A stretch of DNA of 64,000 nt from a virus (IMGVR_UViG_3300023435_000009); one strand, 5' to 3'; shown: positions 7,237 through 54,340, counted from the first letter of the stretch. The notes: generated from the sequence alone by a model not told the origin. Numbers and translations: made by a program.

Positions 7237-10200
7237 GTGAAAAGAGCCGACGCAGAAAACGGGAAAAAGACGGGTGACCGTTCAGACGTTGGTCTGTTTA
7301 TCCCTCTTCCCGGAGATTTGGCATCCCAGTTTCCTGATCTAGGTAGCAACGACCAGTCGGTGCCTCACTCCACCTTCCTCTTCGTAGGATCCGTCCCGCA
7401 GGGCCGGGAAGAGCGGCTGCTGGAGGTGGTGAGGGGTGTGCTGGCAGAGTTGTCCGGTCCGGTCCGGGCGCAACTGGCGTCGGACATTGAGTACTTTGTA
7501 CATCCGGCCAAGCAACGTCGGGTGGCGGTCCTCCCCGTCCGTTTTAGCCATGATCTGGCGGCGATTCGATGGAAGCTCCGGGACGCTCTGGTAGATGACG
7601 GGTTTGATGTGGATGACAGCTTCCCATTGATCTACCGTCCCCATGTGACCTTGGAGTATCTTAACGACCTGGACGAGACCTATGTCGGGACTGTCCCGTC
7701 CGGTGGGTGGTCCCTCAACGGGATCGAAGTCTGGGGTCTGCCCCGTGTGGTGGAGGTCCCCTTCAGCAGCGTCAGCAAGTTGGCCCACCGGCATGTGGAG
7801 TCCAAGGCCCACCACCGTTCCGTCGCACTCATGAAGTTCCTTTCAGGGGTAGCCCGGAAGCTGGGCGTTGGTAACGACGTGTACGTCGTCGGTGGTGCCG
7901 TCCGGAACTTTGTGCTGGATCCCACGGGTCTGAAGTATCCGATTAAGGACATAGATGTCGTCATAGATCCTGTAGCGCTCCGCCGCCCTGACGCCTCCGA
8001 CTGGTTCGCCCAGAAGGTGAAGCGGGCCATCCCCGTGGACGTGAGCCTCGTGACTAACTCGTATGGGGTGAGCATTGTTACAATTACGGGGGATTGGATC
8101 CTGGATGGTGTGTCCATGGCTGGGGAAGTCATAGAGATCGCCAACGCCCGGACCGAGTCCTATGGCGGCACTGCTGGTAAGGGTTACAAACCCCATTTGG
8201 TGGAGCCTGCGACCATCGAAGAGGATGTTAAACGCAGAGACTTCAGTTTTAATACCCTCCTCTGGCGGATGCATGACCTTGCCAACGGCCCGGATCAAGT
8301 GGCGATTCTGGACCTGACGGGCTGCGGGATGAAGGATCTCCAGGATGGGTGGATGCGCTGCCCCTCCAAGCCGGACAGGACCTTCTCGGACGATCCTTCG
8401 AGGATGGTCCGAACTATAAAGTTCATGTTGAAATACGGTTTCAAGATCAGCTCCGAGGTCAAGGCGTCCATCAAGAAGAACGCCCCGAAGCTCAAGAACA
8501 TCCCACCGGGGCACCTGTCCAATATGATCATTGAGACTTTCTTCACGCCCGGTGTGGGAAAGAAGGCCCTCCTGGAGATGGACAAGCTGGGGCTGCTTGA
8601 GGTGACACGGGACATCGCCAGGAAGGATAAGAAGTTCCGGCAGGCTTTGGCCAACTGGGCGGACGCTCATGCCTCCGTGGAGTTCATCTTCGATCTGATG
8701 GATCTGGGGATGCCTTCCGGCAAGCGGTTGGGTTTCCTGAAGCCTGCACAGAAGGATCGTGTACGGGAGATCACCGTACAGATGGATGCCGATGGGTCGG
8801 ATGCCTTTGTGCGGCTGTTGGAGCAGCCGGGCAAGGTCCTCGACATGCCCGGACTCATTACAGAATATGGGTTCAAGGGTGCTGAGATCCGTGCCCTTGT
8901 AGAGGCAGCCCGCACGGCTCTGTTGGACGAGCCTCTCCTGGCCTCGTCCGGTCGGAAGTGGGAGGACAAGATCCGGCGCAGGCTGGGTAAACCTGCTGGG
9001 AAGACCGCTGGAAATGAGGCTCATGTGGTAGCCTCTAAGCCTGTTGTGATTGACGAGGTTCACCTCAAAAAGCTCAAGAAGGACTTCCTCACCTTCACCC
9101 GACAGATTAAGAAACCGAAGGACTACGACCAAGCCCGGTATATGGCTGACGCCTATACTCGTTGGCGGGTGCAGTTCGAGGATTTCATCAAGCGTCTCTG
9201 GAAGTACATGGATGGCCTTCACTGGAGGCATCCGAATTTGTTCTCTGAAAACGACAGAGACTACTGGCGTCGAGTCGTTGGGGAGGATACCTGGGTCCTT
9301 CAAACTGAGAACTTCCCGCTACAGCATCCTGATGACTACTGGACAGAGGAACAGTGTGTTGCTGAGTTTGAGCAGCGACGTGGGCCATGGGTCCGAAAAG
9401 TTCAGAGAGGGGCTCGGGAGGCTTGGTCCCGTCTTGATGACTTCGTCTCGTGGATGGAGACCAACCGTCTCCAAGCGCTACAGACAGAGGGGGACAAGGT
9501 CACACTTGAGTACCCCGAGGTTTACAAGGAGAACATCGACGGTTTCCAGTTGACGTTCAAGGGAATCGAACCGGATGACCGGGCGGAGGTTAAGGGGTTC
9601 TTGGCAGGGCTGAAGAGGTATAAGGCACTGGCTGCGAAGCGTATGCCCCTTCTTCTTCGGAGGAAACTCCCCATCGTCGTGAACAGTATGGGTGAGGTGG
9701 GGCTTGAGTGGGGTGGTCAGTACCACACCCGTTACATTGATTTCAACCTTGCCTCGTCCAGTAGCTCAGGGATACAGAATCGCACTGTTCATGTCTTGGC
9801 TCATGAGATGGGGCATCATATCTTCAAGTCTCTTGGCAGTAAGTCCCGGAAGTTCTGGGACACCCTCATCCGGGGGGACATGGAGCCGTTGGATCTGAAA
9901 AAGATTTACCCCCTGATGAAGGCGGGGGAGGATCTTCAGTGGCTTGCTTTCGACATCGAGGAGAAAGATCCAATCCTTGCCCTCCAGTTAACAGGGGTGA
10001 GCGAGGACTGGCGATGGAAGCACAATGTCCCGACTAAAGAGAAGGTCAAGGAGTTCATTGACGGCGGTGAGGTGCAGATCCATGTTCCCAAGCGCCCCAT
10101 CACCTACTACGCCTCAAAGAACCCAGAGGAAGCCTTCTGTGAGGTGGTCGGGCTTCTGGTTGCCAATGGCCCTGGGTCGGTGGACAACGAGATCCTCCAC

Positions 10201-13200
10201 TGGCTTCGGGTGATCGTACCGTCAGCCAAGATCGCCAACCTCCAGGGTGTGGTGGAAGTCCCGAAAAACACCCACCCAGTCAAGGTGGAGCCGCCCAAGG
10301 CCAAGAGGAAGCAGTTTCCCTTCGTAGGGTACATCGACTTCCAGGGCATCAAGATTGACGTTGAGAATAAGCAGGGGGACGTGCGGAAGGGTGTCAGCCC
10401 TGATGGTGAAGAGTGGGAAACCCACATGTTCCACCATTATGGCGAAATTCGGAATACTGAGGGTACAGATGGCGATAAATTAGATGTTTATGTGGGGGAC
10501 AATCACGACTCTTCCCTGGCGGTCGTTGTCCACCAGCAGGATCCTGACTCAGGCAAGTTCGATGAGGACAAGGTCATGCTCGGCTTTGATTCGGTCGAGG
10601 AGGCCATCGGAGCCTACAAGAAGCAGTACGACCAGCCTGGGTTCTACGTTGAGGGCGAGCACCTGGAGATGCCCATAGGGCAGTTCTGGCGCTGGGTCAA
10701 TGAGGACCGGAACAAGGGTAAGAAGGTCAAGGATGCTGTTGTGCATACAGCGGCCCAGCACGCCCCCTCTACGGCCCCGACGTGGTTTCCCGAGGTAGAG
10801 GGGCGGGTCACAGACATAGCGGCGTCAGGGGACAACGACGAGGGTTGGAAGGCAGCGTCCCAGCGGAGGACTGCCGAGCATAATGACGATTACCAGAGAC
10901 GGGAGAAGGTGCTGCCGGAGGACCTAGACTTTGCCCGGAAGCACCATCTGCCCTTAGAAGAGGATCAGTATTGGGGCACTGTGGTGCCCCTTAAAGCGCT
11001 TTATACAAAGCGTCCCCAATACCACATTTTTGGCATGAACTTAGGTGATCAGAAGCGGTTTGTTTTCGCATCCATTCCTTTGTCCTTGTTAGTCCCGGCT
11101 CAAGAAACTGTCTCGTTGATAGGGCTGCATCGCTACACCGAAGGAAATGTGCGGAGTGACAAGGGTGTACCAGAAGTAGTGCTCTGTGAGTCAGCTTTTT
11201 TTGTCATGGAGGGGCACACCCGGTTGGCCGCAGAGAGGCTCAGAGGGCACTCACGGGCCGAGGTGAAGCTGTTCCTTTATGACGGTAAGAAGTTTCGGAA
11301 GCCTACAGATGAGGATCTGCCCTCATCTGTGCGGCTCCTTAAAAGGAGGCGGAGAGCAACCGCCGCCCAGCGGATAGCAGATCGTTACGTTGAGGGCCTG
11401 CAGATCAACCTGAACGTGGGTGACCCCGTTTTCTACGGGAAATGGAAGTCTTCGCCAGGTACCATCAAGGACTTCAAAACGGATCCCAAGAGCGGTGACC
11501 CTGTTGTGACGGTCGAACCTTATCCGAAGGGACGCAAGAAGCCGAAGGATCTCAAGCTCCTCAAGATCAGGGAGCGGCAGCCCAAGCCAGAAGAGAAGAA
11601 GGCTGGGATGCTGGAGCCGCCTCCGGCGATGGTGAAGTCTGTCCTTGAGTGGGTCATGGCCGTGACACAGAGCACTAAGGCGTTCCGGGCCAAGGAGGAT
11701 TTGGCAAAGGCTCAGGATGTCCTTCAGGCGTTGACAGCACTCAAGCGGGACATGACGAAGCAGCGGGGTGTTCTTGAGGACGCCGTTGCGGATCCGAAGG
11801 TCGGTGTCCGGGCCGAGTACGCAGCCCTTAAGCAGTACGTGGAGACCCTCTTTGAGGACAACCGGAGGACGGCGGTCTTTGTGCAGCGTCTCGTGTGGGG
11901 GCCTCCCAAGTTCAAGAAGTTCACTGAGGCCCACAACAAGGGTGACCTGCCAAGGTATGTGAGGTCAGTCGGTGACGAGGTAGACGAGGCCCTTGCGGAC
12001 AGGATGAAGGCCGTTAAGGGACAGGTCCAGAAGCTCCGGGCCGGGGCCGGTGGTCCCTCAAAGGTGCAGCCAATAATGCCCGGAAAGGAACTGGTAACCC
12101 GGATCCCCGTAGATCTGCGTGGGTGGAAGTACGAGGGGCAGGTTACCGTAGAGAAGGGGGTCAAGGGACTTGTAGATGTCATCACCAAGGCCATGGCCCG
12201 TAAGACGGACATCGATGAGGAGTCCCGGAAGTTCTTTGACGAGTTGATGGAGGGCAACAAGAAGCAGTGGCAGTCTATCGCTGTAAAGTTGGACCCGAAC
12301 CAGACCCCTCACGGGAGATGGCAGTCCGCAACCAAGATGCTGACCCTGAAGTTCGGTGGTCCCGAGAAGGACGCCGCATGGTACCGCCCCCTCATCGAAC
12401 ATGAGTTGCGGCACGTTGCACAGGATCTGATCAATTTCTCCGAGGGTCTGTATGACAGAGGGGGCCGACCTTCTCGTAAGATGCTTACTCCAGACTACAC
12501 CCAGCAGGACGAGGATGCGGCGAGGCAGAAGCTGAGGGCCGTGGGCATCGATCCACGTCAGGTAGCGATTCATCATCTGGACGATGTGGAGTTCTACACG
12601 GACCTGGCAGACGCTGTCGGAGAGTACAAGAGGCAGCAGCCAAAGTTCGACCATCTCCCTCGTAATGAGACCATCAGGTTCTTTGTGGGTGGGAAGGCCA
12701 ATCCTGAGGTGGCACAGGAACTTCGCAGTTTGCGGATGCACCCCCTCCCCTTCTTCACGACGTTGAAGAGGGTTCCTTCCGCAAGGGGTAAGTACCAGAA
12801 GGCTGTGAATGAACTGCTTAAGGCCACGGGCGGGTCCGCTACCAGGGTGGCTCTCCGTTACCTCCAGGGGAAGCAGGCTGGCGTGTTCCAGGGGCCACCG
12901 GCGCTGTTGAAGACCATCCAGGAGTGGGCGCTGGCCACCTACGCCGGACACATCCTCGCTGGGGTTGAGACAGACCTAGAAACGATCCTTGACGCCAAGG
13001 GGCCGATCAAGAGGGCCATCCAGGACATGGGCAAGGGATACGATGAGGTCACTAAGGCGGGCAGTCTTTCCGTTGGCGGATCCTTCAAGTTCCCGATGAC
13101 GGACACCTTCGGCGGTTCCAGTAGTCTCTCCAAGAGTGTCTGGGGGGTCAAAAGGACGGGGGAAGACGTCTACCTGATCGGGAAGGGTGACCGTTCCGTT

Positions 13201-16200
13201 TCCTGGAAGCCCCAACAGTTGCCCTGGCAGTGGGGTCGTGGACCGTGGACCCTTGAGGAAGTCAAAAAGCATCTGATGCCCTACATCAGCAGGGCGACGC
13301 AGAGGATGCGGTCGAAGCTGGATCAACCTGTTGTTGACCCCAACATGCCCAAGGCCGTGGAGTTAACCCTCCTGAAGCGAAAGTGCCTCCAGTACACGAC
13401 TAAGGCCAAGCATTACTCCGGGAAGGCCACCACTAAATTCAAGCTGGATCTGTCCGGTTGGAAGTACCTACCCAATCCCCGAGAGGCCGAAAAGCACATC
13501 AAGGATGAAGAAGGTTGGGATGTGGTGAAGGTGGTGCTGGACTTCAAGGGGAGCCAGACAAAGGGCGGCTACTGGTCCCTCAAGGAGAGGACCCTGGACG
13601 TAGAGATCGGGGCCGGGGCCACCAGCCACTATATCCGAACACCAGAGCAGGCCCGGACGGTGTCTCTGTTCGAGACAGGTATAACGCAGATCACAGGGAC
13701 TTGTCGTCATGAGGTCCAGCATATTGGACAGGATGCCCTGAGGCTCGCTAAGGGATTATCGGAGGACGCAGGTCTCCCTGGCCGCACTCTACGGAACCCG
13801 GACTTCACCCCCGAGGGGCGGAAGCTGCACGTCCCTGAGGGGGATGCTCCTTCTGGGAAGGTACACCCGCTTCGGGATGTGGAGTTCCATACCCGGATCC
13901 AGGACGAGATAGAGAAGTTCTCTCGCTTTGTGCGGAAGGGTGTTGTCGCCAAGGCTAAGATCAAGGAGGCCCTCCATATCTGGGTGGGGGCGTCCCCCGA
14001 GAATGAGATGAAGGATCCAGACGGCAAGGTCATCATGACCACGCAGCAGTTCTTCTACTCCCTGCGGAAGTACGAGAAGGGGAAGTGGCAGAAGGCCGTC
14101 GATGAGTTCAGGAAGGGTCTTATGCGGAAGGGTCTCCGGATCAGTTCTGAGGACATCCAGTCGGCCATGACGCAGAGGGTCAGGCAGGACCAGGAGTACT
14201 TTGCCTCGCTCTTGGGCACTGTCGCTCAGATCCAGTCCGAGATCGATGCTCATCCCGATTATTACTCTACATCGGACAAGAACAGGAAGCTCTGGTTGGC
14301 GTGGAAAGATCTGGCTTTGCTAGGGGATCGGCTGGCCAGGGCCGTGTTGGATCAGAAGAGCATCCCGCCGGGCAAGAATAAAGCCTTCGAGTTGGCTGCT
14401 CGTGCCTTCATCTCTATACGGGGGACTCCCCGTGACATTGAGAAGTGGATGGTGAAGAACAAGCGGCACATCAACCTTCTCAACGACACCGTAGACTGGC
14501 CAGACAAGTCAGAGGACGAGAAGCTCAAGGTGGGGGCCTTTACGGTACACAACACCCTTGGGTTGGAAGGGGCGGACCTTGACCGAAGTAAGAAGAACGT
14601 TCAGAAGGCTGAGTCGCTGATTCGTCGGATGCCCTTTCCGAAGGGACTCAAACAGGTTCTTTATGGGGACGTTTACATAGTAGCTCGGCTAAACAAAACC
14701 AAAACGTGGGCCTTCTACTACCCTCGGGACGACAACGTCTATGTCAGGGCTGACACCAAGGGTGTGTTGGGAGAGACTCACAGCCTTATTCACGAACTGG
14801 CTCATCGCTATTGGGAACAGTTCGCATCCGTTTCCAAGAAGCACGCCTGGATCCGCCACCACGCCCATATGTCCGGCAAGAGCATGCCCGCCGAGAAGAT
14901 GCCGATGCCGAACGTTGGGGAGACTCTCCCCCTCAAGATTCCGGGTGCCCCTCGGGGGTTCGAACCTGTGGTTTCCCATGTCCATGCCGGGAAGTACTGG
15001 TTCGATGTGCCCTCCAAGGATGGGAAGACGACCAGGACGATGAACTACCCCGTCCACGAGATGGCGAAGTTCCTTTATGACCGGGACGAGAGGACAAAGC
15101 GGCGGGAGACCTTCCCGACCCCCTATGCAGCGAAGAACGCTGAGGAACACTTCTGTGAATCCACGGCATTGAGGGCATTGGGCAAACTGAAGGGGTCAAA
15201 CTTGGATGAGTACGACCGAATCTGGGGTGGCTCAGGGGGGCGGGTGGCCAGTCAGGACTCATCAGTAGAGGCCAAAGTGGACTTCTCTGGCACTCGTTGG
15301 GTAGTGGCACCCCCGTCCAAGTTGGACGAGGCACAGGCTGAAACCGTTTGGCAGGTTTATCATACATCCTATGGGAACCTTGGTGAACACATCTCAAACC
15401 TGTCGGAGCTGTTGTCCAAGTACCAGTTGTTCTGGCTCGTGGATGTAGACGGGGATGAGAAACCGGATGCGTTCATTGCCTATAAAAAGACCCCAGCGGG
15501 TAAGAAGATAGGTGTTATCGGTTCTGACGGGTCTCCGTTGGCCAAGCGACTAGTGGTACGGAAACTCCTCCAGTTGTTTCAGGGCAACGGGTACTACGTC
15601 GAGGCTTCGGGACGACCGGCACAAATGCTAGACTCCGCTGGGGTGCCCCATGTGACGGATCAGGCTGATGTGGAGGCCGTGATGGCTCCGAAAAAGATCC
15701 ACTGGTTGGGGGACGGTAAGTACACCAGGGCCATTGGTGGTTTGGGGACGAAGGAGAAACGCTTGTACGGACATCCCAGGATCCCACGAGCACGTAAGCA
15801 GGCACGTCGGTTGGCCACCCGCTGGCTCAGGTCCTCTGCGAGCATCCCGGCCCAGCAGATTGCAGCACGTTATCTGGAGGCCGGTGCCTACCCCACAAGC
15901 CGTTTGGTGGAGGGTCCACTCATTGACGGGCATATCCCACCGAGAACCCCACAGGGACGGCCTCCGGCGTATTTATACCGCTCTATGCCGGTGGCGGAGT
16001 ACGAGGCAGCAGTGTCTCGGGGTCAGATGCGGGGGCGTCCGCTCCACGCCGCAGGCGAGCCTGTTTTCTACACCCTCAACCCAGGCGAGAACGTCCTGGT
16101 CGCAATAGAGTACCGTGACCGAGATGGCTGGGACTCCAAGGTGGGTATGGGAGGCAGCACCATTTACGCCATCACCCACGACGCTATTCCGATGTCGAGA

Positions 16201-16335
16201 GTTGCTGAGTTGGCACGGGGGGCCAAGGGGGATCTGAAACGGTGGAAGTCCGCTGCCAAGTTCAAGGACAAGAAGAAGGTCAAGAAGCAGGATGGCGGCG
16301 AGATGACCGGAGGTAAAGCTGATGTGTTCTTCTAA
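7237..16335 (+). CDS. Giant multidomain (polyvalent) protein, 3032 aa
   Basis: Domains read by motif: 2H phosphoesterase (HST 7366, HVT 7642); class II CCA/poly(A) nucleotidyltransferase (GGAVR, DID, RRDF, FSDDPSR); HExxH peptidases (9802, 12400, 13708, 14791); phage pyrophosphatase (YGEI..DGDKLDVYVG..DEDKVMLG); ParB-like (EGHTR); SH3/KOW-like; GNAT-like. Confidence 0.85.
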   Translation: MKRADAENGKKTGDRSDVGLFIPLPGDLASQFPDLGSNDQSVPHSTFLFVGSVPQGREERLLEVVRGVLAELSGPVRAQLASDIEYFVHPAKQRRVAVLPVRFSHDLAAIRWKLRDALVDDGFDVDDSFPLIYRPHVTLEYLNDLDETYVGTVPSGGWSLNGIEVWGLPRVVEVPFSSVSKLAHRHVESKAHHRSVALMKFLSGVARKLGVGNDVYVVGGAVRNFVLDPTGLKYPIKDIDVVIDPVALRRPDASDWFAQKVKRAIPVDVSLVTNSYGVSIVTITGDWILDGVSMAGEVIEIANARTESYGGTAGKGYKPHLVEPATIEEDVKRRDFSFNTLLWRMHDLANGPDQVAILDLTGCGMKDLQDGWMRCPSKPDRTFSDDPSRMVRTIKFMLKYGFKISSEVKASIKKNAPKLKNIPPGHLSNMIIETFFTPGVGKKALLEMDKLGLLEVTRDIARKDKKFRQALANWADAHASVEFIFDLMDLGMPSGKRLGFLKPAQKDRVREITVQMDADGSDAFVRLLEQPGKVLDMPGLITEYGFKGAEIRALVEAARTALLDEPLLASSGRKWEDKIRRRLGKPAGKTAGNEAHVVASKPVVIDEVHLKKLKKDFLTFTRQIKKPKDYDQARYMADAYTRWRVQFEDFIKRLWKYMDGLHWRHPNLFSENDRDYWRRVVGEDTWVLQTENFPLQHPDDYWTEEQCVAEFEQRRGPWVRKVQRGAREAWSRLDDFVSWMETNRLQALQTEGDKVTLEYPEVYKENIDGFQLTFKGIEPDDRAEVKGFLAGLKRYKALAAKRMPLLLRRKLPIVVNSMGEVGLEWGGQYHTRYIDFNLASSSSSGIQNRTVHVLAHEMGHHIFKSLGSKSRKFWDTLIRGDMEPLDLKKIYPLMKAGEDLQWLAFDIEEKDPILALQLTGVSEDWRWKHNVPTKEKVKEFIDGGEVQIHVPKRPITYYASKNPEEAFCEVVGLLVANGPGSVDNEILHWLRVIVPSAKIANLQGVVEVPKNTHPVKVEPPKAKRKQFPFVGYIDFQGIKIDVENKQGDVRKGVSPDGEEWETHMFHHYGEIRNTEGTDGDKLDVYVGDNHDSSLAVVVHQQDPDSGKFDEDKVMLGFDSVEEAIGAYKKQYDQPGFYVEGEHLEMPIGQFWRWVNEDRNKGKKVKDAVVHTAAQHAPSTAPTWFPEVEGRVTDIAASGDNDEGWKAASQRRTAEHNDDYQRREKVLPEDLDFARKHHLPLEEDQYWGTVVPLKALYTKRPQYHIFGMNLGDQKRFVFASIPLSLLVPAQETVSLIGLHRYTEGNVRSDKGVPEVVLCESAFFVMEGHTRLAAERLRGHSRAEVKLFLYDGKKFRKPTDEDLPSSVRLLKRRRRATAAQRIADRYVEGLQINLNVGDPVFYGKWKSSPGTIKDFKTDPKSGDPVVTVEPYPKGRKKPKDLKLLKIRERQPKPEEKKAGMLEPPPAMVKSVLEWVMAVTQSTKAFRAKEDLAKAQDVLQALTALKRDMTKQRGVLEDAVADPKVGVRAEYAALKQYVETLFEDNRRTAVFVQRLVWGPPKFKKFTEAHNKGDLPRYVRSVGDEVDEALADRMKAVKGQVQKLRAGAGGPSKVQPIMPGKELVTRIPVDLRGWKYEGQVTVEKGVKGLVDVITKAMARKTDIDEESRKFFDELMEGNKKQWQSIAVKLDPNQTPHGRWQSATKMLTLKFGGPEKDAAWYRPLIEHELRHVAQDLINFSEGLYDRGGRPSRKMLTPDYTQQDEDAARQKLRAVGIDPRQVAIHHLDDVEFYTDLADAVGEYKRQQPKFDHLPRNETIRFFVGGKANPEVAQELRSLRMHPLPFFTTLKRVPSARGKYQKAVNELLKATGGSATRVALRYLQGKQAGVFQGPPALLKTIQEWALATYAGHILAGVETDLETILDAKGPIKRAIQDMGKGYDEVTKAGSLSVGGSFKFPMTDTFGGSSSLSKSVWGVKRTGEDVYLIGKGDRSVSWKPQQLPWQWGRGPWTLEEVKKHLMPYISRATQRMRSKLDQPVVDPNMPKAVELTLLKRKCLQYTTKAKHYSGKATTKFKLDLSGWKYLPNPREAEKHIKDEEGWDVVKVVLDFKGSQTKGGYWSLKERTLDVEIGAGATSHYIRTPEQARTVSLFETGITQITGTCRHEVQHIGQDALRLAKGLSEDAGLPGRTLRNPDFTPEGRKLHVPEGDAPSGKVHPLRDVEFHTRIQDEIEKFSRFVRKGVVAKAKIKEALHIWVGASPENEMKDPDGKVIMTTQQFFYSLRKYEKGKWQKAVDEFRKGLMRKGLRISSEDIQSAMTQRVRQDQEYFASLLGTVAQIQSEIDAHPDYYSTSDKNRKLWLAWKDLALLGDRLARAVLDQKSIPPGKNKAFELAARAFISIRGTPRDIEKWMVKNKRHINLLNDTVDWPDKSEDEKLKVGAFTVHNTLGLEGADLDRSKKNVQKAESLIRRMPFPKGLKQVLYGDVYIVARLNKTKTWAFYYPRDDNVYVRADTKGVLGETHSLIHELAHRYWEQFASVSKKHAWIRHHAHMSGKSMPAEKMPMPNVGETLPLKIPGAPRGFEPVVSHVHAGKYWFDVPSKDGKTTRTMNYPVHEMAKFLYDRDERTKRRETFPTPYAAKNAEEHFCESTALRALGKLKGSNLDEYDRIWGGSGGRVASQDSSVEAKVDFSGTRWVVAPPSKLDEAQAETVWQVYHTSYGNLGEHISNLSELLSKYQLFWLVDVDGDEKPDAFIAYKKTPAGKKIGVIGSDGSPLAKRLVVRKLLQLFQGNGYYVEASGRPAQMLDSAGVPHVTDQADVEAVMAPKKIHWLGDGKYTRAIGGLGTKEKRLYGHPRIPRARKQARRLATRWLRSSASIPAQQIAARYLEAGAYPTSRLVEGPLIDGHIPPRTPQGRPPAYLYRSMPVAEYEAAVSRGQMRGRPLHAAGEPVFYTLNPGENVLVAIEYRDRDGWDSKVGMGGSTIYAITHDAIPMSRVAELARGAKGDLKRWKSAAKFKDKKKVKKQDGGEMTGGKADVFF

Positions 16336-17152
16336 CTTTATCGGACAGGTTTATTCCTTGCATGATCCTGTGACACAGGAGTTGCGTTATGTTGGACAAA
16401 CAACACACACACTGGAACATCGTTTGAAACAACACTTGAAGCAGTTGAAAAAAAGCACACACAAAAACAACTGGATTCGGTCTCTTCTTCCTAGTCGACC
16501 TTTGATTCGGCACGTTTGTTTCGCTGCCTCTCAGTCTGAATTGGATCTTCTGGAGATAGGCCACATCGCAAAAACAAAAACCTCTGGGTGTCGTCTGACT
16601 AATGCAACTACAGGGGGGAGGGGAGGGAGGCATTCTGCTGAGACCATCGCAAAAATGAGAGTGGCACACACAGGAAAAGTGTTTTCACAGGAGGCTCGAC
16701 AAAACATGTCCAAGGCAAAAAAGGGTCATCCTGTTTCGGAAGAGACCAGACGTAAAATTGCTGCCGCAAATACAGGACATGTGCCATCGCTGGACACTCG
16801 AACCAAATTAAGTTTAGCACTTCTTGGCCATACCGTTACAAGTGAGACGAGACAACGCATCTCAGAGGGTAACAAGGGCAAAGAGCGTACTGCTGCTTTT
16901 CGAAGACATCTATCGAAAATTAACCTTGGAAAGAAACACACGGAAGAGTCTAGGCTTCGAATGTCGGGGCGGGTGATGCCTGAGGAGACCCGACAGAAAA
17001 TTTCTAGGGCATTGAAAGGGCGAGCAAAAGAGGGGATGTCCGAAGAAACCAAGCGTAAGATTTCGGATGCCAAAAAAGGAAAGACACTGTCCTTTGAGAC
17101 CAGGCAACGAATGTCAGAGGCGCAAAAAGTCCGATGGGCAAAACAAAAATGA
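16322..17152 (+). mobile_element. Free-standing GIY-YIG homing endonuclease with NUMOD3 repeats
   Basis: VYSLHDP..RYVGQT..RLKQH N-terminal domain; about seven H/V-SxETRxKIS repeats; AT-richer than flanks. Confidence 0.85.
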
Positions 17153-20100
17153 AGACCTTTTTTGATGATGAAAGGGTGGTGCGCCGGATTGCAACCCTGT
17201 ACGTATGCCGGGTTGCACAGGATCACAAATACAAAAAAAGGCACAAGTCCCCTGGCGGAACTAAGATATACGAGTACAGCGACCGTCATGTGAACGACCG
17301 GAACAAGGGCAAAGCCCAGAAGGTTGAAAAGCTTCGGCATGGCATCACCAAGCTCCGGGGTCAGGTCCATAAGGATCTCAAGTCCAAGGATGAGAAGACC
17401 CGTGCAACGGCCCTGGCTGTTGGTCTCATGGACGCCACCTACGAAAGAATTGGTAATCCGACTTCTGCCAAAGAGGGCCATTTTGGGGTCACTGGATGGA
17501 AGGCCCAACACATCACATTTTCCGGGGGCACAGCCACCATCAAGTACGTTGGGAAATCCGGCGTGAAGCATGAGAAGGTCATCAGCACCCCAGGTTCTGT
17601 GGCGGCGCTCAAGGCTGCTGTGAAGGGTAAGAAGCCCGGAGACACCGTGGTGGACGCCTCAGCAGAGGATGTGAACGGATACCTCAAGCCCTTCGGTGTC
17701 ACCGCCAAAGATATTCGTGGCTTTCATGCTAATACAGAGATGCAAACCCGGCTCAAGGCTATCCGGTCCAAGGGCGGCAAGCTGCCCACCGACAAAAAGG
17801 AGCGAGAGAAGGCCCTCAAGGAGGAGTTCAAGAAGGCCCTGGCTGAGACAGCCGAGGCGGTAGGGCATGAGGCAGCTACGTTGAAGAGCCAGTACCTTGT
17901 GCCAGGTTTGGAGTCCGATTTCCTTAAGGATGGAACGGTCAACGACAAGATGGTGAAGAAAGGCTCAGAGTTGGCACACCGCTGGTTGAAGACGGCCATC
18001 ATCAACATCAACAACGCCACCGATGGTCCCGAAGGAGATCTGATGTTGAGGGGCGACTACGGGCTCCAGTCCAGCCTGACTTACTACGAGCAGGCGATCA
18101 TGCAGGATTTGATCATCCACCACCACCCGATCCTGAACACTCCCGAGGGGTATACGCTCAGGGGGCACAAGGTCGGCCCCAGTGCTGTGTGTGAGTTGAT
18201 GGGAGCCGGATACCTGGAGGACCATGGCGGGGAGATATACTTGTCCCCTATGTACGAAGCCAAGCAGAAGCTCTACCGGACAGCCTCTTCATCCAGACTG
18301 ATCCTGTTGTATGAGCGGCACTACCCACCCGAGGACAGGTCCATCGAGCATTACGCTGCTTGGCGCAACAGCCTGACCCTCCCGATGGCCCGGACGGCAG
18401 CCTATGACATCATCAGACACTGCCCCCATTGTCAGTGCGTCCTGCACGACGGTCCTCGCTACCATGAGCACTGCGACGACTGTGGGTACGACGTAGATTT
18501 CCCAGGCGGACGGGAGCGTCTGAAGGACGGGGAATGGACACCCATCCCCGAGGATGACCCCCGGCTGGTCCTGTTCAAAGAGAAGAAGGCAACGCAACTG
18601 GATGCTTTCGAGAAGATGTGGCGGACGGCAACCAAGACCCACGGGGAACGTGAGGACGAGGAAGCCGAGCGGTTGCTACGCCCCGAGCCTAAGAAGAAGC
18701 CCCCCCGGAATGATCTCCGCCGGGAGCAGATGAACACGGACAAGGACAAGGACACAGAGTCGGAGGGTGCTGACGGGGACAAGGACCTCTCTTTGAATTA
18801 CAAGCGGATTGCCCTGCGCTGGCTCGCTGCGGCTGGTGAACACAAGCCCGGCGAGGTGTGGCAGACGGAGTCCGGTTGGGCAGGGCAGAACCCAGACGGT
18901 GTCCCTCATACCTTCAAGGATCGGACGAAAGCCGAAGCCTACGCCAAGGGTCAGTCCGAGGCCCCTGAGGACGAGGAGAAAGCTGCCCCTGAGGAGGAGC
19001 AGTCCCCTGAGACCACCCCTCAGCCTGAGGAACCGAAGAAGAAGCCGAAGCCCCGGAAGGATCCTGAGCAGGTTCGATTTGACCGGAAGGTCCAACGGGA
19101 GGTGAAGAACCTGAGGGCAGAACGTAAGGGTGTCAAGGACGCCAAGGTGGAGCTTCGTCAGGCCAAAAAGGATCTCAAGGAGGCTCGTGCAGAACTCAAG
19201 GCAACCCAGAAGGGAACGCCTGGGTACGTCATAGCTAAGGATACAGTCGACACTGCCAAGGAGTTGGTGGACCAGGCCCAGGAACAGTTGGACACGGCAA
19301 CGGAGTCTTTCGAGGCCACCAAAAAGCGGGTGGAGGAGATAAAGTCAGAGCGGGTGGAACGCTACCCCGACAGCAATACGGAGTTGGGCCGTATTCGTTT
19401 GCTCCTTCGAGAGTTTGATCAGACGTCAGATGATGACAATGACGGGAGTATGAGGGCCGAGACGCTTGAGGATAAACTCTCCAAGTACGACGTTGCTTCT
19501 CAGGAGCAGGCAGCCTCTGCTTTCCAGAAGGAAAGCACCTCCTTGGCCCATCAGGAGTTAACCCCTGAGTTGGTTCAGGAGATCGTGGCAGCCGAGAAGC
19601 AGCTTAAAAAGAAGGGCCTGTCCGCCGAGGTTTTCGGGGAGTTGACTGCCCGTGTGATGTTCGGGCACAGCATCCTGGCGAACCCCACCAAGGTTTCGCC
19701 TATGCGTGGAGTCGAGGTGGATGGTGCGGAGCAGGCGAAGATCGCCAGAGACTCCTACGATCACTACTCTAAGCTCAATCCCGAACTCCGGGCCAACGCA
19801 TTCCGGCAGGCAGCGGAGGAACTCAAAAAGCACCCGGACGATTCACCCGATAGTGTCCATCTGTCCCGTGTGGTGGATGGTCTCTACCTGGCCTCAGTAG
19901 CGGCTGGGGATGATGACTCCGTGAGGGAGACGGACGGGAAGAGACTCATTCCTGAGCCGTCCGGCATCTTCAAGGCCCTGGTTAAGATGCAGAAGGGCGA
20001 CGACAGTTTTGGGAGCGAATCAGGTGACCTTGTAGATCTCATGTCTACTGAGTTCTATGGACCCAAGGGAAGGGCTGCACTGCGGACCCGGATCTCAGAA

Positions 20101-20718
20101 TTGGATGACAATGACCTGACCAACCTGTTTACGGGAGGGGATCAGGAACTGGATCGGATGATCCAGGACGCCCTTTCCAAAATGACAGAGCCTTGGCAGC
20201 GGGAGTTGCTCAGGGGTCTGATGCAGGATCTGACCCTGGACTCAATGACGACCCAGCATGCAATCCTGACGAGTCAGGCGGGGGCTGAGGAAGGCCCCGA
20301 AACTCTGAAAAACCAGGGCACCCGGTCCATGCCTAAGACCCCGGAGGAGATGGACTACACGCTGACGGACTATCGGCGTCGGGCAGCAGATGCTGCTTCG
20401 GATGAGATGGAGGCTCTCTTGGCGTGCCTGAGGGGGCATAAGGATTCTGAGACCGCTCGTCAGGCGTGTCAGGAGAAGGCAAATGCGTACCGGATCAAGT
20501 CCCACGCTGGGTTCCTGCAACTCGTAACTGATGAGTTTGGTATCCGAGATGAACTAGATCCTTTCCTGGTTCAGTTACGAACGATGTTGGATCGTCAGGA
20601 TCTCGCAGAACTTGATTTCAAGTTTGTTTCTGAGGGAGCAAAAACGGCGTTTACACGGAAAACAGTCCGTGCAGTTCAATCCTCTGCCTATACGGATGAC
20701 ATAAAGGCGAGGGGCTGA
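17149..20718 (+). CDS. Multidomain protein with N-terminal DNA topoisomerase IB domain
   Basis: Topo IB catalytic pattern ERIGN, GKSG, KDIRGFH, GH..ATLKSQY (Tyr at 17893); then a small Cys cluster, a coiled coil and a helical C-terminus. ATG 17149 overlaps the endonuclease stop. Confidence 0.8.
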   Translation: MKTFFDDERVVRRIATLYVCRVAQDHKYKKRHKSPGGTKIYEYSDRHVNDRNKGKAQKVEKLRHGITKLRGQVHKDLKSKDEKTRATALAVGLMDATYERIGNPTSAKEGHFGVTGWKAQHITFSGGTATIKYVGKSGVKHEKVISTPGSVAALKAAVKGKKPGDTVVDASAEDVNGYLKPFGVTAKDIRGFHANTEMQTRLKAIRSKGGKLPTDKKEREKALKEEFKKALAETAEAVGHEAATLKSQYLVPGLESDFLKDGTVNDKMVKKGSELAHRWLKTAIININNATDGPEGDLMLRGDYGLQSSLTYYEQAIMQDLIIHHHPILNTPEGYTLRGHKVGPSAVCELMGAGYLEDHGGEIYLSPMYEAKQKLYRTASSSRLILLYERHYPPEDRSIEHYAAWRNSLTLPMARTAAYDIIRHCPHCQCVLHDGPRYHEHCDDCGYDVDFPGGRERLKDGEWTPIPEDDPRLVLFKEKKATQLDAFEKMWRTATKTHGEREDEEAERLLRPEPKKKPPRNDLRREQMNTDKDKDTESEGADGDKDLSLNYKRIALRWLAAAGEHKPGEVWQTESGWAGQNPDGVPHTFKDRTKAEAYAKGQSEAPEDEEKAAPEEEQSPETTPQPEEPKKKPKPRKDPEQVRFDRKVQREVKNLRAERKGVKDAKVELRQAKKDLKEARAELKATQKGTPGYVIAKDTVDTAKELVDQAQEQLDTATESFEATKKRVEEIKSERVERYPDSNTELGRIRLLLREFDQTSDDDNDGSMRAETLEDKLSKYDVASQEQAASAFQKESTSLAHQELTPELVQEIVAAEKQLKKKGLSAEVFGELTARVMFGHSILANPTKVSPMRGVEVDGAEQAKIARDSYDHYSKLNPELRANAFRQAAEELKKHPDDSPDSVHLSRVVDGLYLASVAAGDDDSVRETDGKRLIPEPSGIFKALVKMQKGDDSFGSESGDLVDLMSTEFYGPKGRAALRTRISELDDNDLTNLFTGGDQELDRMIQDALSKMTEPWQRELLRGLMQDLTLDSMTTQHAILTSQAGAEEGPETLKNQGTRSMPKTPEEMDYTLTDYRRRAADAASDEMEALLACLRGHKDSETARQACQEKANAYRIKSHAGFLQLVTDEFGIRDELDPFLVQLRTMLDRQDLAELDFKFVSEGAKTAFTRKTVRAVQSSAYTDDIKARG
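20677..20692 (+). promoter_or_regulatory. Candidate phage promoter (AAT-N8-TATA)
   Basis: CAATCCTCTGCCTATA, 15/16 identical to 43729-43744; upstream of the head operon. Confidence 0.5.
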
Positions 20719-44657: not shown

Positions 44658-44668
44658 GGGAGGCGGAC

Positions 44669-47983: not shown

Positions 47984-48012
47984 GTTCAATTGAGCCCCTC
48001 TTCTTTTTCCGG

Positions 48013-48041
48013 TTGACACAGTCTTTCCTTTTTTGTATAAT
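48013..48041 (+). promoter_or_regulatory. Perfect sigma70 consensus promoter
   Basis: TTGACA-17 nt-TATAAT, 6 nt before ATG 48048. Confidence 0.8.
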
Positions 48042-48047
48042 CCAATC

Positions 48048-50411: not shown

Positions 50412-50465
50412 CCCTCTTCAGTCTATAATCCTCAGTGCCCACATACTACGGGCGGTGAGGTTGCG

Positions 50466-50792: not shown

Positions 50793-50799
50793 CCCCTAG

Positions 50800-52154: not shown

Positions 52155-52222
52155 GGTGGGTCTCCTTTACGGGGTCATTTGCCCCTCACCTTAACTACTC
52201 TGGCCTGTGGTAAGATGATCCC

Positions 52223-52654: not shown

Positions 52655-52696
52655 ACCTCTGAGGATGTGACAGAAGGGTCTAACTGGAGGTTTTCG

Positions 52697-54340
52697 ATGA
52701 GTACCCGAATGGCCACGGAGTTCCCCTCAGAAGAGGCCCTGAAGAAGTACCTTAAGGAACATCCTAAGGCTGACCCGAAAAAGCACTCGGTGGCGGAATC
52801 TGGTGGGGAGTCCGAAAAGAAGGAACCGGAGGGGAAACAGCCCCAGAAGAGATACAGGTACCCTAGTGCCCTGATGAGTAAAGGTAACCTTTATTTCACT
52901 GACGCCGATGAGGTCGAGGCGTTTGCCAAGAAGACTAAATCCCTGTCGGGAGATAAGCAGACAGATGCCCAGGTCATGAAGAAGTTTTTGGCTGGGGCCT
53001 CACCAGGGACTAAAAAGAAAGTGGAGACTATGACTCCTGCTGAGTTCATGGGGCTTGTCAAAGCTCTTTTGGAGAATAAGGGGTTTAAGGATTCCCCCAT
53101 GTATAAGTCCCCGGCAGCGAAGCCTGATGCGAAGGAGCCAAAGAAAAAGGAGCCAAAGAAAAAGGAGCCAAAGAAAAAGGAGCAGACTGCCCCTAGTGGT
53201 TCACTGCCCTCTCCTGAGGCTTTGCGGATGAAGTCGTTCAAAGTTCCAGAGAAGCTTTCGCAGGCAGCCGTAGATAACCCTGTTGATATGCTGAAGTATC
53301 TGAGTAAGAAGGAAGGCAAAGACGATCTTCCCATTTGGGATGTTCCGAAGAAGTTTGCTGACGCTTTCCTTGCCGTTTTAGATGGGGCACCGGACGATGC
53401 TGCTAAGAAGAAAGCGGTCTTTAAGGTGGTGGAAAAGGCCACGCCACTTCAACTTGAATGGATCTGGTCCGAACTAGGATCTTGGAACTACGAGGGTCTG
53501 GCATCGGAACTAGCACATCGTTATGATGTGGGTCGTGATGGGGACTTGGAGCTTGCTGCTGTAGAGTACCTCCGAACATATAACGAAAAGATGCTTAAGA
53601 CTCTGGACCGGGGTTTTCACGCCGGAGACTGGGGGGCAGAAGCTAAAAAGAACCCTCGTTGGTGGAATGACTACGGTATCGAATGGGACATGGGAAAAAA
53701 GAAGAAGGCTATGGCCAACTCAGCAACAAGGATTGCTGCCCGTTACCTCGACATGGTGGCCTGCGATTGCGGTGACGAACTGTTCGCCGGGCGTGAGCAC
53801 GGTGAGGGGGGCAAGGGCTACGGTGAGTCTGGTCCCGATGTCCGAGGTCCCGGTAAGTGGCAACCCAAGCCGAAGGGTAAGTGCTACTACGAGACCGGCG
53901 ACGAGAAGGACCGCTGTTACGTTACGCAACATGGTGGCCCAGGCGGGCAGAAAAAGCCCGGCCCTGCTACGAAGCCTGGCGACTGGAAGACCTACGAGAA
54001 GCAGCGTTGGAAGGGGGCTGCTCTGTCACACCCCGAGGACGAAGAGGGGGCGCTGAAGGCGCTGAAGGTCTTCGCTAAGAAGGCTGAGTTGCCTTTCGCC
54101 ATCCAGGGTATAGAGAACCGGGAGTATCCGGTGAAGAGCCCCAAGGGGTTTGGGTCCCTGTTCGATAAGCTCTACATCAGCGTGGAGTGGTGGCAACCCT
54201 CATGGTGTAAGATTCAGTGGGGCTACACCCACCCCTCTGGTGGTTCCAACGGGTTGAACATTGGATCTGTCGGATGGGATGTTGATAAGGAGAAGTGGTA
54301 CTGGAAGTTGGATACCGGCAAGTACGGTTGGATCAACTAG
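52697..54340 (+). CDS. Multimodule hypothetical protein carrying RIAARYL
   Basis: GGAGG SD; Lys-rich linkers; modules separated by RMA/KKA/RIAARYL/GAA sites. Confidence 0.7.
   Translation: MSTRMATEFPSEEALKKYLKEHPKADPKKHSVAESGGESEKKEPEGKQPQKRYRYPSALMSKGNLYFTDADEVEAFAKKTKSLSGDKQTDAQVMKKFLAGASPGTKKKVETMTPAEFMGLVKALLENKGFKDSPMYKSPAAKPDAKEPKKKEPKKKEPKKKEQTAPSGSLPSPEALRMKSFKVPEKLSQAAVDNPVDMLKYLSKKEGKDDLPIWDVPKKFADAFLAVLDGAPDDAAKKKAVFKVVEKATPLQLEWIWSELGSWNYEGLASELAHRYDVGRDGDLELAAVEYLRTYNEKMLKTLDRGFHAGDWGAEAKKNPRWWNDYGIEWDMGKKKKAMANSATRIAARYLDMVACDCGDELFAGREHGEGGKGYGESGPDVRGPGKWQPKPKGKCYYETGDEKDRCYVTQHGGPGGQKKPGPATKPGDWKTYEKQRWKGAALSHPEDEEGALKALKVFAKKAELPFAIQGIENREYPVKSPKGFGSLFDKLYISVEWWQPSWCKIQWGYTHPSGGSNGLNIGSVGWDVDKEKWYWKLDTGKYGWIN
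53132..53183 (+). repeat. 15-nt tandem repeat x3.5 (KEPKK)
   Basis: AAGGAGCCAAAGAAA repeated. Confidence 0.9.

What the first reader, a model, noticed from the sequence alone, without database searches (positions are those of the whole stretch)
7237..54340. A recurring (R/K)[IVL]AxR[YW]L + K/R-x-A code marks domain junctions: candidate capsid-loading and polyprotein-processing system
Seen in the sequence: near-identical heptapeptides occur at KLAHRHV 7777, RIADRYV 11371, RVALRYL 12844, RLATRWL 15808, QIAARYL 15856, RIATLYV 17185, ELAHRWL 17968, RIALRWL 18805, RVATAYL 21933, RLAQRYL 33709, AIAHRYL 35796 and RIAARYL 53729. They lie in linkers or at termini, never inside enzyme cores. They are usually followed within 2-5 residues by K/R-x-A/S (SKA, KQAG, RVA, KTA, KKS, KQA). 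Bare K/R-x-A sites (KTAG 9001, KKAG 11596, RVAS 15241, KSAA 16246) mark the other junctions. I did not notice the motif in terminase, portal, MCP or the mobile nucleases. Established: T4 and phiKZ prohead proteases cut internal head proteins at short motifs, and T4 uses a capsid-targeting peptide. Inference: this is an amphipathic docking helix plus a protease site that loads many unrelated enzymes into the head and releases them as separate modules.
Basis: partly seen in the sequence, partly recalled or inferred. Interest (0 to 1): 0.9.

Follow-up and report, generated by a model that had tools for sequence, protein, structure and literature searches.

The report
Shared peptide tag on huge-phage proteins
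A short helical peptide (about R-V-A-x-R-Y/W-L) recurs far above chance at the ends and domain junctions of many unrelated enzyme modules encoded beside the head genes of a clade of huge phages; it looks like a common docking tag, perhaps for loading these enzymes into the capsid, but neither its binding partner nor any cleavage has been shown.

Summary
All 12 heptapeptides and the 4 K/R-x-A sites are at the stated coordinates. The core [IVL]A.R[YW][LV] occurs 9 times in the window's coding frames, against 0.13 expected, and never in other frames. Codons vary, so selection acts on the peptide.

In 80 related loci and one 536-kb relative:
- 71 instances fall into 32 non-homologous contexts.
- 14 contexts lie within 16 residues of an ORF end.
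- The same modules are fused in one phage, with the tag at the junction, and separate in another, with the tag at a terminus.

The tag is an amphipathic helix behind a flexible linker (two AlphaFold models). Carriers are a 3032-aa polyvalent protein, a TopoIB protein, a ParB/SWIM protein and small head-cluster proteins. Terminase, portal, tail and mobile genes lack it; the capsid protein matches only a loosened pattern.

The "K/R-x-A code" is weak. It follows 41% of tags against 12% background, fits helical periodicity, and bare sites are uninformative. Two bare sites are decayed tags.

Best reading (about 0.45): a portable docking tag for one common partner in the procapsid. The partner is unknown and cleavage is not shown. 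No paper found describes it. The scan noted the same motif in an overlapping window of this genome, not on other DNA.

The parts
7237..16335 (+). 3032-aa polyvalent protein carrying 4 clear tags, 1 diverged tag and 2 decayed tags
   Evidence: Pfam hits: 2_5_RNA_ligase2 41-147, PolyA_pol 215-373, InPase 1031-1154. Its modules are shuffled or free-standing in relatives.
7777..7797 (+). KLAHRHV, diverged tag at the junction of the 2H and nucleotidyltransferase modules
   Evidence: Lies between the Pfam domains. Orthologues have KVASRFL (L049) and RMASRIV (G001) at the same place.
11371..11391 (+). RIADRYV, tag in front of an SH3-like module
   Evidence: PSSM score 28. The same tag-plus-SH3 unit follows the NTase module directly in G001, as RVANRYM.
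12844..12864 (+). RVALRYL, tag just upstream of the second zincin-B module
   Evidence: PSSM score 29. The G001 homologue of this module is a separate 265-aa ORF with a C-terminal tag.
15241..15252 (+). RVAS, remnant of a tag after the zincin module
   Evidence: After the same module L007 has RVARRYM, and the L051 ORF ends RLASRYLRREATK*.
15808..15876 (+). Tandem tags RLATRWL and QIAARYL, 9 residues apart
   Evidence: This arrangement resembles L051, where one ORF ends with a tag and the next ORF begins with one.
16234..16257 (+). LKRWKSAA, decayed tag at the start of the TopoIB module; the ORF is then cut by the GIY-YIG gene
   Evidence: Homologous to L007 RVAARWLKSAAGKYKDKKTVKKQDGGE.
17134..20718 (+). 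1194-aa TopoIB protein with tags at residues 18, 279 and 558
   Evidence: Pfam Topoisom_I 55-251. Conservation profile from the orthologue alignment.
17185..17205 (+). RIATLYV, weak N-terminal tag of the TopoIB module
   Evidence: Relatives have canonical tags here, either as the ORF N-terminus (L061, L051) or as an internal junction (L028 at 898, L023 at 422).
17968..17988 (+). ELAHRWL at the C-terminal edge of the TopoIB domain
   Evidence: PSSM score 15.7. Not conserved in orthologues, so membership is doubtful.
18805..18825 (+). RIALRWL inside the conserved block DKDLSLNYKR-tag-KPGEVW
   Evidence: Kept in nearly all of 12 orthologues.
21633..22214 (+). Protein C (about 193 aa): SH3-like domain, linker with RVATAYL (21933-21953), then a zinc ribbon
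   Evidence: Family consensus is RVAxAF/YV after a linker of variable length. In the AlphaFold model the helix at residues 96-114 lies in the low-confidence stretch between the two confident domains.
33358..33756 (+). Protein D (132 aa): helical hairpin, Gly-rich linker, then a C-terminal tag RLAQRYL (33709-33729)
   Evidence: Alignment A1. AlphaFold mean pLDDT 86, with the tag inside helix 113-131 behind a low-confidence linker. The tag is kept in 108 of 120 homologue clusters.
33753..35843 (+). Protein E (696 aa, ParB-like plus SWIM) with a C-terminal tag AIAHRYL (35796-35816)
   Evidence: ParB-like GNHR and SWIM CxC..CxH motifs are read from the sequence. Pfam SWIM hits the G001 orthologue. 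Eight orthologues end with a tag.
52667..54340 (+). Protein F (557 aa) with an internal tag RIAARYL (53729-53749)
   Evidence: PSSM score 27.5. Its N-terminal HPKAD motif is shared with giant proteins of L041/L042.
20786..21622 (+). s278, scaffold-like protein and candidate partner, with a tag-like N-terminal helix RVATLFQ
   Evidence: Conserved C-terminal tail HGFNLxA. In some relatives it is fused to the end of the TopoIB giant protein. Found by the relaxed-pattern scan.
22214..23791 (+). Prohead protease (525 aa), candidate partner or processing enzyme
   Evidence: phrog_18299 head maturation protease, E 5e-12. No Pfam or PDB sequence match.
23788..25089 (+). a433, acidic scaffold-like protein and candidate partner, with a tag-like helix KVAKAML
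   Evidence: Family consensus C[IL]R[IVL]AxxML, followed by the acidic helix VEDQALDLMD.
26122..27000 (+). Major capsid protein, candidate partner
   Evidence: phrog_2522, E 9e-47. At least 86% identical across the best 80 of 577 related IMG/VR stretches.

Best explanation
The motif is a portable short linear peptide of about 14 residues. Its consensus is A/S-x-R-[VIL]-A-x-R-[YW]-L, often preceded by a run of basic residues. It forms a two-to-four-turn amphipathic helix at the end of a flexible linker.

In this clade of huge phages, distantly related to phage G, it is attached to the N-terminus, the C-terminus or the inter-module junctions of many unrelated enzyme modules. These include 2H phosphoesterase, nucleotidyltransferase, zincins, TopoIB, ParB/SWIM and small helical proteins, and they are encoded in or near the head-assembly cluster.

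The most likely function is a common docking tag. Every tagged module, whether encoded alone or strung into a polyvalent protein, would bind the same partner in the assembling procapsid. That partner could be the scaffold-like proteins, the inner face of the capsid protein, the protease or the portal. The module would so be loaded into the head for delivery with the DNA.

Shown here: the motif is real and selected at the peptide level; it is portable across contexts; it sits at termini and junctions; it is helical behind a linker; and PSSM hits in the window are confined to these six proteins.

Inferred: that it binds a partner, which partner, and that the outcome is packaging. Proteolysis next to the tag is possible but is neither required nor demonstrated.
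For: 1. Enrichment: 9 against 0.13 expected in the window. In relatives, 39 hits against 0 between coding and opposite-strand ORFs. R/K at -1 and A/S at -3 are enriched although neither is in the search pattern.

2. Portability: 71 instances fall into 32 contexts whose flanks are not homologous.

3. Terminal bias: 20 of 59 instances lie 4-16 residues from the stop and 8 lie 4-8 residues from the start. Fourteen of 32 independent contexts are terminal. G001 has small ORFs that start MKSFQRVATRYL, MQQSPKHRVASRWI and MGLAQRIIARYL.

4. Fusion and fission at tags:
- The D domain keeps the tag whether it ends there or continues into further domains.
- The TopoIB module begins with the tag, either as an ORF start or as an internal junction.
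- The zincin module ends with a tag and a stop in L051, but runs on in L007 and in the window.
- The window's tandem tags correspond to a C-terminal tag plus an N-terminal tag of adjacent ORFs in L051.

5. Structure: in the D model the tag is a helix behind a low-confidence linker of variable length. In the C model the helix lies in the low-confidence stretch between two confident domains. Mean hydrophobicity has a period of about 3.6-4 residues.

6. Purifying selection: in 108 D homologue clusters, -1 is R/K in 105, +1 is A in 91 and +3 is R in 97, while +2 is free.

7. Carriers have domains typical of phage polyvalent proteins, which are predicted to be virion-packaged (Pfam; Iyer et al. 2017, PMC5512222). 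The genes lie between the portal and the neck genes.

8. The two scaffold-like proteins of the head cluster carry conserved tag-like helices: RVATLFQ in s278, and KVAKAML in a433 (family consensus CIRIAxxML).

9. Precedents from established knowledge: the T4 capsid-targeting sequence (PMC3012670, listed); the P1 DarB N-terminal packaging signal and encapsulin cargo-loading peptides are recalled from memory.
Against: - No partner was identified.
- There are no virion proteomics for any member; the clade is known only from metagenomes.
- In the complete relative G001 about half of the candidate tags lie far from the head cluster, on proteins of unknown function.
- Some clade members have few tags, or a variant with Ala at +3 (G003 and G005), although their MCP is about 88% identical. 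This speaks against MCP as a universal receptor.
- The cultured distant relatives Tunturi_5 and phage G show no clear tags near their MCP genes.
- Tag 18805 sits in a conserved block, and the C-family helix may belong to its zinc-ribbon domain.
Confidence: 0.45

Rival explanations
1. The motif is the recognition element of a processing protease. This could be the prohead protease at 22214, or the zincin modules embedded in the polyvalent protein. The polyprotein would be cut next to it, for instance after K/R-x-A, so the tag marks cleavage junctions rather than docking.
For: - K/R-x-A/S within 5 residues is enriched: 19 of 46 against 12% background. It is strongest after internal tags, 15 of 34.
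- Tags lie exactly where relatives have gene boundaries.
- Iyer et al. propose that zincin (MPTase) domains cut polyvalent proteins into units (PMC5512222).
- From memory: assemblin-fold proteases of herpesviruses cut at (V/L/I)-x-A|S.
Against: - Most terminal tags lie 4-16 residues from an ORF end, where cutting would achieve nothing.
- Only 2 of 10 N-terminal and 5 of 21 C-terminal tags have K/R-x-A/S.
- The spacing between the tag and K/R-x-A varies by 0-2 residues.
- A at +8/+9 fits the hydrophobic face of the helix, and in the D model KQA lies inside the helix.
- KKAG and KQAG are homologous parts of paralogous modules, not independent sites.
- Bare K/R-x-A occurs 51 times in the 3032-aa protein.
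Confidence: 0.2
2. The tag acts after ejection. It would tether the enzymes to a conserved platform in the infected cell: a sliding clamp (like a PIP box or beta-clamp motif), RNA polymerase, the ribosome or the incoming DNA.
For: - Terminal or linker position with basic flanks is typical of clamp-binding peptides (established knowledge).
- Many carriers act on nucleic acids: TopoIB, ParB-like, nucleotidyltransferase.
- Q at -2 is the commonest residue there, 6 of 36.
- About half of the G001 candidates lie outside the head cluster.
Against: - The consensus does not fit Qxx[ILM]xx[FY][FY] or QL[SD]LF: Q is a minority and position 4 is Ala.
- Carriers include non-DNA enzymes and small head-cluster proteins C and D.
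- No annotated replication enzyme carried a tag among the G001 tag-bearing ORFs that were scanned against Pfam.
- Multiple tags in one chain, and tag-like helices in scaffold-like proteins, fit assembly better.
Confidence: 0.15
3. The helices bind one another, or bind the helical hairpin of protein D. They would glue the modules into an internal protein body rather than address them to a shell or scaffold receptor.
For: - Tandem tags and several tags per chain.
- D is a conserved helical hairpin that always carries a tag.
- The tag helix in the D model has fairly high confidence, about 84.
Against: A two-turn helix with two arginines is a poor self-associating unit. There is no direct evidence, and the model output gives no contacts.
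Confidence: 0.1
4. It is only a favoured capping or linker helix that is inherited when modules are shuffled. It has no specific binding function.
For: Modules are clearly shuffled together with their tags, for example the tag-plus-SH3 unit.
Against: - Six positions are strongly conserved while the flanks are non-homologous, in 32 contexts.
- It occurs at extreme N- and C-termini of small unrelated ORFs.
- Position +2 is free, but both arginines and the aromatic residue are fixed.
Confidence: 0.07

Closest known systems
T4 capsid-targeting sequence (CTS) of internal proteins IPI-III, Alt and others
   Same: A short amphipathic peptide shared by unrelated proteins that end up inside the head. 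In T4 it is sufficient to load foreign proteins, and the genes lie near or within the head module.
   Different: The T4 CTS is strictly N-terminal and is removed by gp21 at L/I-x-E. Here the tag works from either end, internally and in tandem. There is no L/I-x-E site and the sequence is unrelated.
Encapsulin cargo-loading peptides
   Same: The architecture is domain, flexible linker, short conserved terminal peptide. The shell is an HK97-fold protein, and many unrelated cargos share one tag.
   Different: Different consensus: encapsulin tags are Gly/Ser/Leu-rich and bind extended. They are usually one per cargo and C-terminal. Binding to the shell is proven there and untested here.
Polyvalent proteins of phages (Iyer et al. 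2017)
   Same: Strings of effector domains (2H, NTase, InPase, ParB-like, zincin) encoded beside portal and head genes. They are predicted to be packaged and then processed.
   Different: That paper's text, searched by keyword, never uses the word 'linker' and no passage shown mentions a junction motif. The tag described here is an added layer, and it also marks free-standing modules.
Herpesvirus and phage scaffold C-terminal capsid-binding tails, with an adjacent protease site (M-site)
   Same: A terminal helix that docks a core protein to the shell, with a nearby x-A|S type cleavage site. The protease fold is shared with phage prohead proteases (recalled knowledge).
   Different: Those tails sit on one scaffold protein, not on dozens of enzymes. 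Cleavage here is unproven, and the class of this protease is unresolved.
P1 Dar proteins (DarB N-terminal packaging signal)
   Same: Large antirestriction enzymes loaded into heads through a terminal segment. ParB-like (DdrB) and zincin modules are shared themes.
   Different: The P1 signal is not a short motif shared across many proteins, and there is no sequence similarity.

Membership tests
T4-type capsid-targeting sequence | N-terminal position, 10-19 residues from the start | tested here: not met
   Only 8 of 59 instances are N-terminal; 20 are C-terminal and 31 internal.
T4-type capsid-targeting sequence | Followed by a prohead-protease site (L/I-x-E in T4) | tested here: not met
   No common site follows the tags. 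K/R-x-A/S follows 2 of 10 N-terminal tags.
T4-type capsid-targeting sequence | Sufficient to load a foreign protein into proheads | not testable with these tools
   Needs an experiment.
Encapsulin-type cargo-loading peptide | Short conserved terminal peptide behind a flexible linker on otherwise unrelated cargos | tested here: met
   D and E families, G001 small ORFs, 32 unrelated contexts.
Encapsulin-type cargo-loading peptide | Binds a pocket on the inner face of the HK97-fold shell protein | tested here: inconclusive
   No usable computational answer was obtained (see Tried and rejected); an experiment is needed.
Encapsulin-type cargo-loading peptide | Known consensus of family 1-4 tags | tested here: not met
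   The consensus here is R-[VIL]-A-x-R-[YW]-L. It is unlike the Gly/Ser/Leu-rich tags recalled from the literature.
Phage polyvalent protein (the carrier, not the tag) | Two or more effector domains in one chain | tested here: met
   Pfam 2_5_RNA_ligase2, PolyA_pol and InPase in the 3032-aa protein.
Phage polyvalent protein (the carrier, not the tag) | Zincin/MPTase module | tested here: inconclusive
   HExxH motifs (HEMGH, HELAH) are visible in the sequence, but there is no Pfam hit.
Phage polyvalent protein (the carrier, not the tag) | Neighbourhood of portal and head genes | tested here: met
   The portal gene at 3950-7201 lies directly upstream; protease and MCP lie downstream.
Prohead-protease cleavage motif | One site motif present at every processed junction and in scaffold or MCP propeptides | tested here: inconclusive
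   K/R-x-A/S is enriched, but it is present after fewer than half of the tags and is common elsewhere.
PIP-box / beta-clamp binding motif | Qxx[ILM]xx[FY][FY] or QL[SD]LF | tested here: not met
   Q at -2 in 6 of 36; Ala at the hydrophobic position; Arg invariant at +3.

The most novel reading that the evidence does not exclude
The peptide would be a sequence-readable packaging address for a whole clade of uncultivated huge phages. Any module bearing R-[VIL]-A-x-R-[YW]-L at either end or at a junction would be loaded into the capsid by docking to a scaffold or shell site. The scaffold-like proteins would occupy that same site with their own tag-like helices. Tandem tags would mark places where polyproteins are split into separately anchored units. 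The tag would then define the ejected proteome directly from sequence.
Probability: 0.35. Interest if true: 0.8.

Novelty: new variant of a known kind. Interest (0 to 1): 0.65.

Why it matters
If the tag is a loading signal, it gives a direct computational read-out of which proteins huge phages carry into the cell. That "ejectome" is invisible today for phages known only from metagenomes.

It would also explain how giant polyvalent proteins and their free-standing modules are interchangeable in evolution, because each module keeps its own address.

It would supply a short portable peptide for loading cargo into very large HK97-type capsids.

Even if the partner proves to be something else, a six-position motif kept on at least 30 unrelated protein contexts points to one hub protein, and that protein is worth finding.

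Tried and rejected
- Complex prediction, MCP (alignment A2) with the last 37 residues of D (A1:96-132): verdict "no answer", score 0.00, controls not run. This is neither for nor against binding. The window's portal also contains an intein.
- Fold search of the D model against PDB and BFVD gave no match with E <= 0.001. D is a generic helical hairpin.
- ESM Atlas look-up of D gave no informative neighbours.
- megablast of the head genes against cultured phages found nothing.
- The search for related loci with the last 343 residues of the polyvalent protein found no relatives.
- The look-up of encoding contigs for MCP relatives at 47-53% identity returned only 2-5 kb contigs. The edge of the tag-bearing clade could therefore not be mapped.
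- Tunturi_5 and phage G share only the protease core and MCP by BLAST, so a phyletic-profile search for the receptor was not possible.
- A DNA pattern for the Ala(+3) variant was not above control in five genomes.
- Protease class: no Pfam or PDB sequence match.
- A DNA-level repeat or recombination linker was rejected because codons vary.
- HELAHRYW at 14794 was rejected as a tag because it is a zincin active site.
- Literature searches found no description of the motif.

Full report
**Observation.** All twelve heptapeptides and the four K/R-x-A tetrapeptides translate exactly as claimed at the stated coordinates.
- The core [IVL]A.R[YW][LV] occurs nine times in the window. Every copy is in a + strand coding frame, and none is in the other frames.
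- Shuffling each protein gives a mean of 0.13 and never more than 3 in 5000 trials. The strict form R[IVL]A.R[YW]L occurs 5 times against 0.004 expected.
- Codons for the conserved residues differ from copy to copy. Selection therefore acts on the peptide and not on a DNA repeat.
It adds one look-alike, HELAHRYW at 14794, which is a zincin HExxH active site.
- No PSSM hit falls in terminase, portal, MCP, TnpB or the homing endonucleases.

**Setting.**
- The window is the head region of a huge phage. It encodes an intein-containing terminase and portal, a 3032-aa polyvalent protein (2H, PolyA_pol, InPase), a GIY-YIG gene and a 1194-aa TopoIB protein. Then come a prohead protease and a 292-aa major capsid protein.
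- The capsid protein is at least 86% identical in the best 80 of 577 related IMG/VR stretches, on contigs up to 619 kb.
- It is 48% identical to that of Tunturiibacter phage Tunturi_5 and 38% to that of Bacillus phage G.
- Those two cultured phages show no clear tags within 20 kb of their MCP genes.
- The window's own D protein occurs on a contig of 528 kb.

**The motif in relatives.**
- In 80 loci (967 kb) the core occurs 39 times in coding-strand ORFs and never in opposite-strand ORFs.
- Position -1, which is not part of the search pattern, is R/K in 29 of 36 distinct instances. Position -3 is A/S in 19 of 36.
- At PSSM >= 14 there are 59 hits, against 2-3 in reversed or opposite-strand controls.
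- Of the 59, 20 lie 4-16 residues before the stop codon and 8 lie 4-8 residues after the first possible start.
- After adding the complete 536-kb relative G001, 71 instances fall into 32 contexts whose 80-residue flanks are not homologous. Fourteen of these contexts are terminal.
- G001 has small ORFs that begin MKSFQRVATRYL, MQQSPKHRVASRWI and MGLAQRIIARYL. Another ORF has tag-like peptides at both ends. A free-standing zincin-B module ends RVAGRWIGRIAYQ*.

**Fusion and fission at tags.**
- Protein D (33358-33756) keeps the tag right after its conserved domain and a variable Gly-rich linker. This holds whether the protein stops there or continues into other domains.
- In 120 D homologue clusters the tag is found in 108. 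Position -1 is R/K in 105, +1 is A in 91 and +3 is R in 97, while +2 is free. Ninety-two end within 16 residues of the tag.
- The TopoIB module starts with the tag followed by a KYKDKK..G.T.YEY segment. This is the ORF N-terminus in L061, L051 and the window, and an internal junction in L028 and L023.
- The zincin module at residues 2352-2664 of the polyvalent protein is followed by RVARRYM in L007 and by RLASRYLRREATK-stop in L051.
- The next L051 ORF starts VTFESQKLAARYL. The window's tandem RLATRWL-9 aa-QIAARYL therefore looks like a fused C-terminal tag plus N-terminal tag.
This is the TopoIB N-terminus, into which the GIY-YIG gene is inserted.
- KLAHRHV at 7777 is a diverged but conserved tag at the 2H/NTase junction, with KVASRFL in L049. 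ELAHRWL at 17968 is not conserved.

**Structure.**
- The AlphaFold model of D (22-row alignment, mean pLDDT 86) is a helical hairpin. A short third helix follows, then a low-confidence linker (107-112) and a terminal helix (113-131) that contains the tag.
- The model of protein C has a confident SH3-like barrel and a confident zinc ribbon. The tag-like helix (residues 96-114) lies in the low-confidence stretch between them. The linker before it varies from 4 to about 50 residues among orthologues.
- Mean hydrophobicity peaks at -3, 0/+1, +4/+5 and weakly at +8/+9. The helical moment is greatest at 80-100 degrees.
- One exception: tag 18805 is embedded in a conserved block of about 100 residues.

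**The K/R-x-A element.**
- K/R-x-A/S within five residues after the tag occurs in 19 of 46 distinct instances, against 12% at random positions.
- It follows 15 of 34 internal tags, 5 of 21 C-terminal tags and 2 of 10 N-terminal tags.
- The instances are partly homologous. KKAG 11596 and the KQAG after 12844 are the same N-terminal piece of two paralogous zincin-B modules, and G001 starts that module as MSISIDAGLLEPPPAMV.
- Spacing varies by 0-2 residues. Small residues at +8/+9 continue the hydrophobic face, and in the D model KQA is inside the helix.
- Bare K/R-x-A/S occurs 51 times in the 3032-aa protein.

**Mechanism.** What is shown is a portable, strongly selected amphipathic helix on flexible tethers. 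It marks the ends of enzyme modules encoded around the head genes. The best-supported inference is that it docks all these modules to one common partner.
- Packaging into the procapsid is the most economical reading, for four reasons: the gene neighbourhood, the polyvalent-protein domain repertoire (PMC5512222), the multivalency, and the precedents of the T4 CTS (PMC3012670, listed) and encapsulin tags.
- A lead for the partner: both scaffold-like proteins of the cluster carry conserved tag-like helices. These are s278 RVATLFQ at its N-terminus, and a433 KVAKAML (family consensus C[IL]R[IVL]AxxML) followed by the acidic helix VEDQALDLMD. A relaxed pattern gives 11 hits in the window against 1.0 expected. 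The three extra hits are all in s278, a433 and MCP.
- Against MCP as the receptor: G003 and G005 have 88%-identical MCPs but few tags. In G003 these carry Ala or Glu at +3, as in RVASAWM and RLAAEWI-RKAAG-RVASAYL.
- In G001 only 9 of 19 candidates lie within 50 kb around MCP. The tag is therefore not strictly a head-cluster feature.

**Rivals.**
- A protease recognition element, which terminal tags and the sparse K/R-x-A argue against.
- A post-ejection tether to a host or phage platform. The consensus fits neither a PIP box nor a beta-clamp motif.
- Self-association of tags, or binding to the D hairpin.
- A functionless linker helix, which six fixed positions on 32 unrelated contexts argue against.

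**Novelty.** Keyword searches of the paper library found no description of this motif, and in the polyvalent-protein paper the word 'linker' does not occur and no passage shown mentions a junction motif. The kind of thing, a capsid or cargo targeting peptide, is known. New would be a single tag that works from either terminus, internally and in tandem, on dozens of modules across a clade of huge phages. Notes e1-5401849 and e1-5401850 agree on the polyvalent protein and on the GIY-YIG split.

Noticed in passing
16250-17290: The GIY-YIG gene (16322-17152) is inserted inside the N-terminal segment of the TopoIB module. The 3032-aa ORF ends ..RWKSAAKFKDKKKVKKQDGGEMT + GGKADVFF. The next ORF restarts with a second copy of the segment (RIATLYV..KYKKRHKSPGGTKIYEYS). 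L007 has the uninterrupted form.
   Followed up: partly
20786-21622: The s278 family has a conserved C-terminal tail KKAxHGF(N/D)LxA-stop behind an acidic low-complexity linker. In several relatives (L001, L051, L061, L075, L042) this domain is the C-terminal end of the TopoIB giant protein.
   Followed up: partly
23788-25089: Acidic scaffold-like protein with EDEDD/KKKKAKK repeats. It has a conserved N-terminal PPAxPGYGTEDQDHPAH motif (twice in the window copy), a conserved helical core (CIRIAxxML .. VEDQALDLMD) and a conserved C-terminal LSxLWESAPDVSxVF.
   Followed up: partly
52730-52790; L041, L042 and L045: A second recurrent peptide, FPSxEALKKYLKEHPKADPKKHxV, occurs near the N-terminus of protein F and of giant proteins in relatives. 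In L045 it directly follows a tag variant (ARVAHRYA).
   Followed up: no
11590-11640 and 12865-12915: Two paralogous zincin-B modules share the N-terminal piece KxAG-hh-x-(G/P)PPA(L/M)(L/V)K..EW. G001 encodes this module as a separate 265-aa ORF.
   Followed up: partly
26122-27000: The capsid protein is unusually conserved, at least 86% identical over the best 80 of 577 related IMG/VR stretches. Neighbouring head proteins are only 45-70% identical. It contains RVARVYM at residue 180, probably part of the fold.
   Followed up: no
33753-35843: Protein E combines a ParB-like motif (GNHRLAIAKELG) with a SWIM zinc finger (CSCPYWRW..CKH). In relatives the D domain is sometimes fused to ParB-like or other domains.
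   Followed up: no
3-7201; 37066-38457; 48033-49280: There are intein remnants in the terminase and the portal, and three TnpB-like genes in the window (Pfam Cas12f1-like_TNB).
   Followed up: no
L071 (G003) 3-4553 and 16993-17400: This relative uses a tag variant with Ala or Glu at +3: RVASAWM, RVAQAYT, and the tandem RLAAEWI-RKAAG-RVASAYL. This is a possible handle for covariation with the unknown partner.
   Followed up: partly
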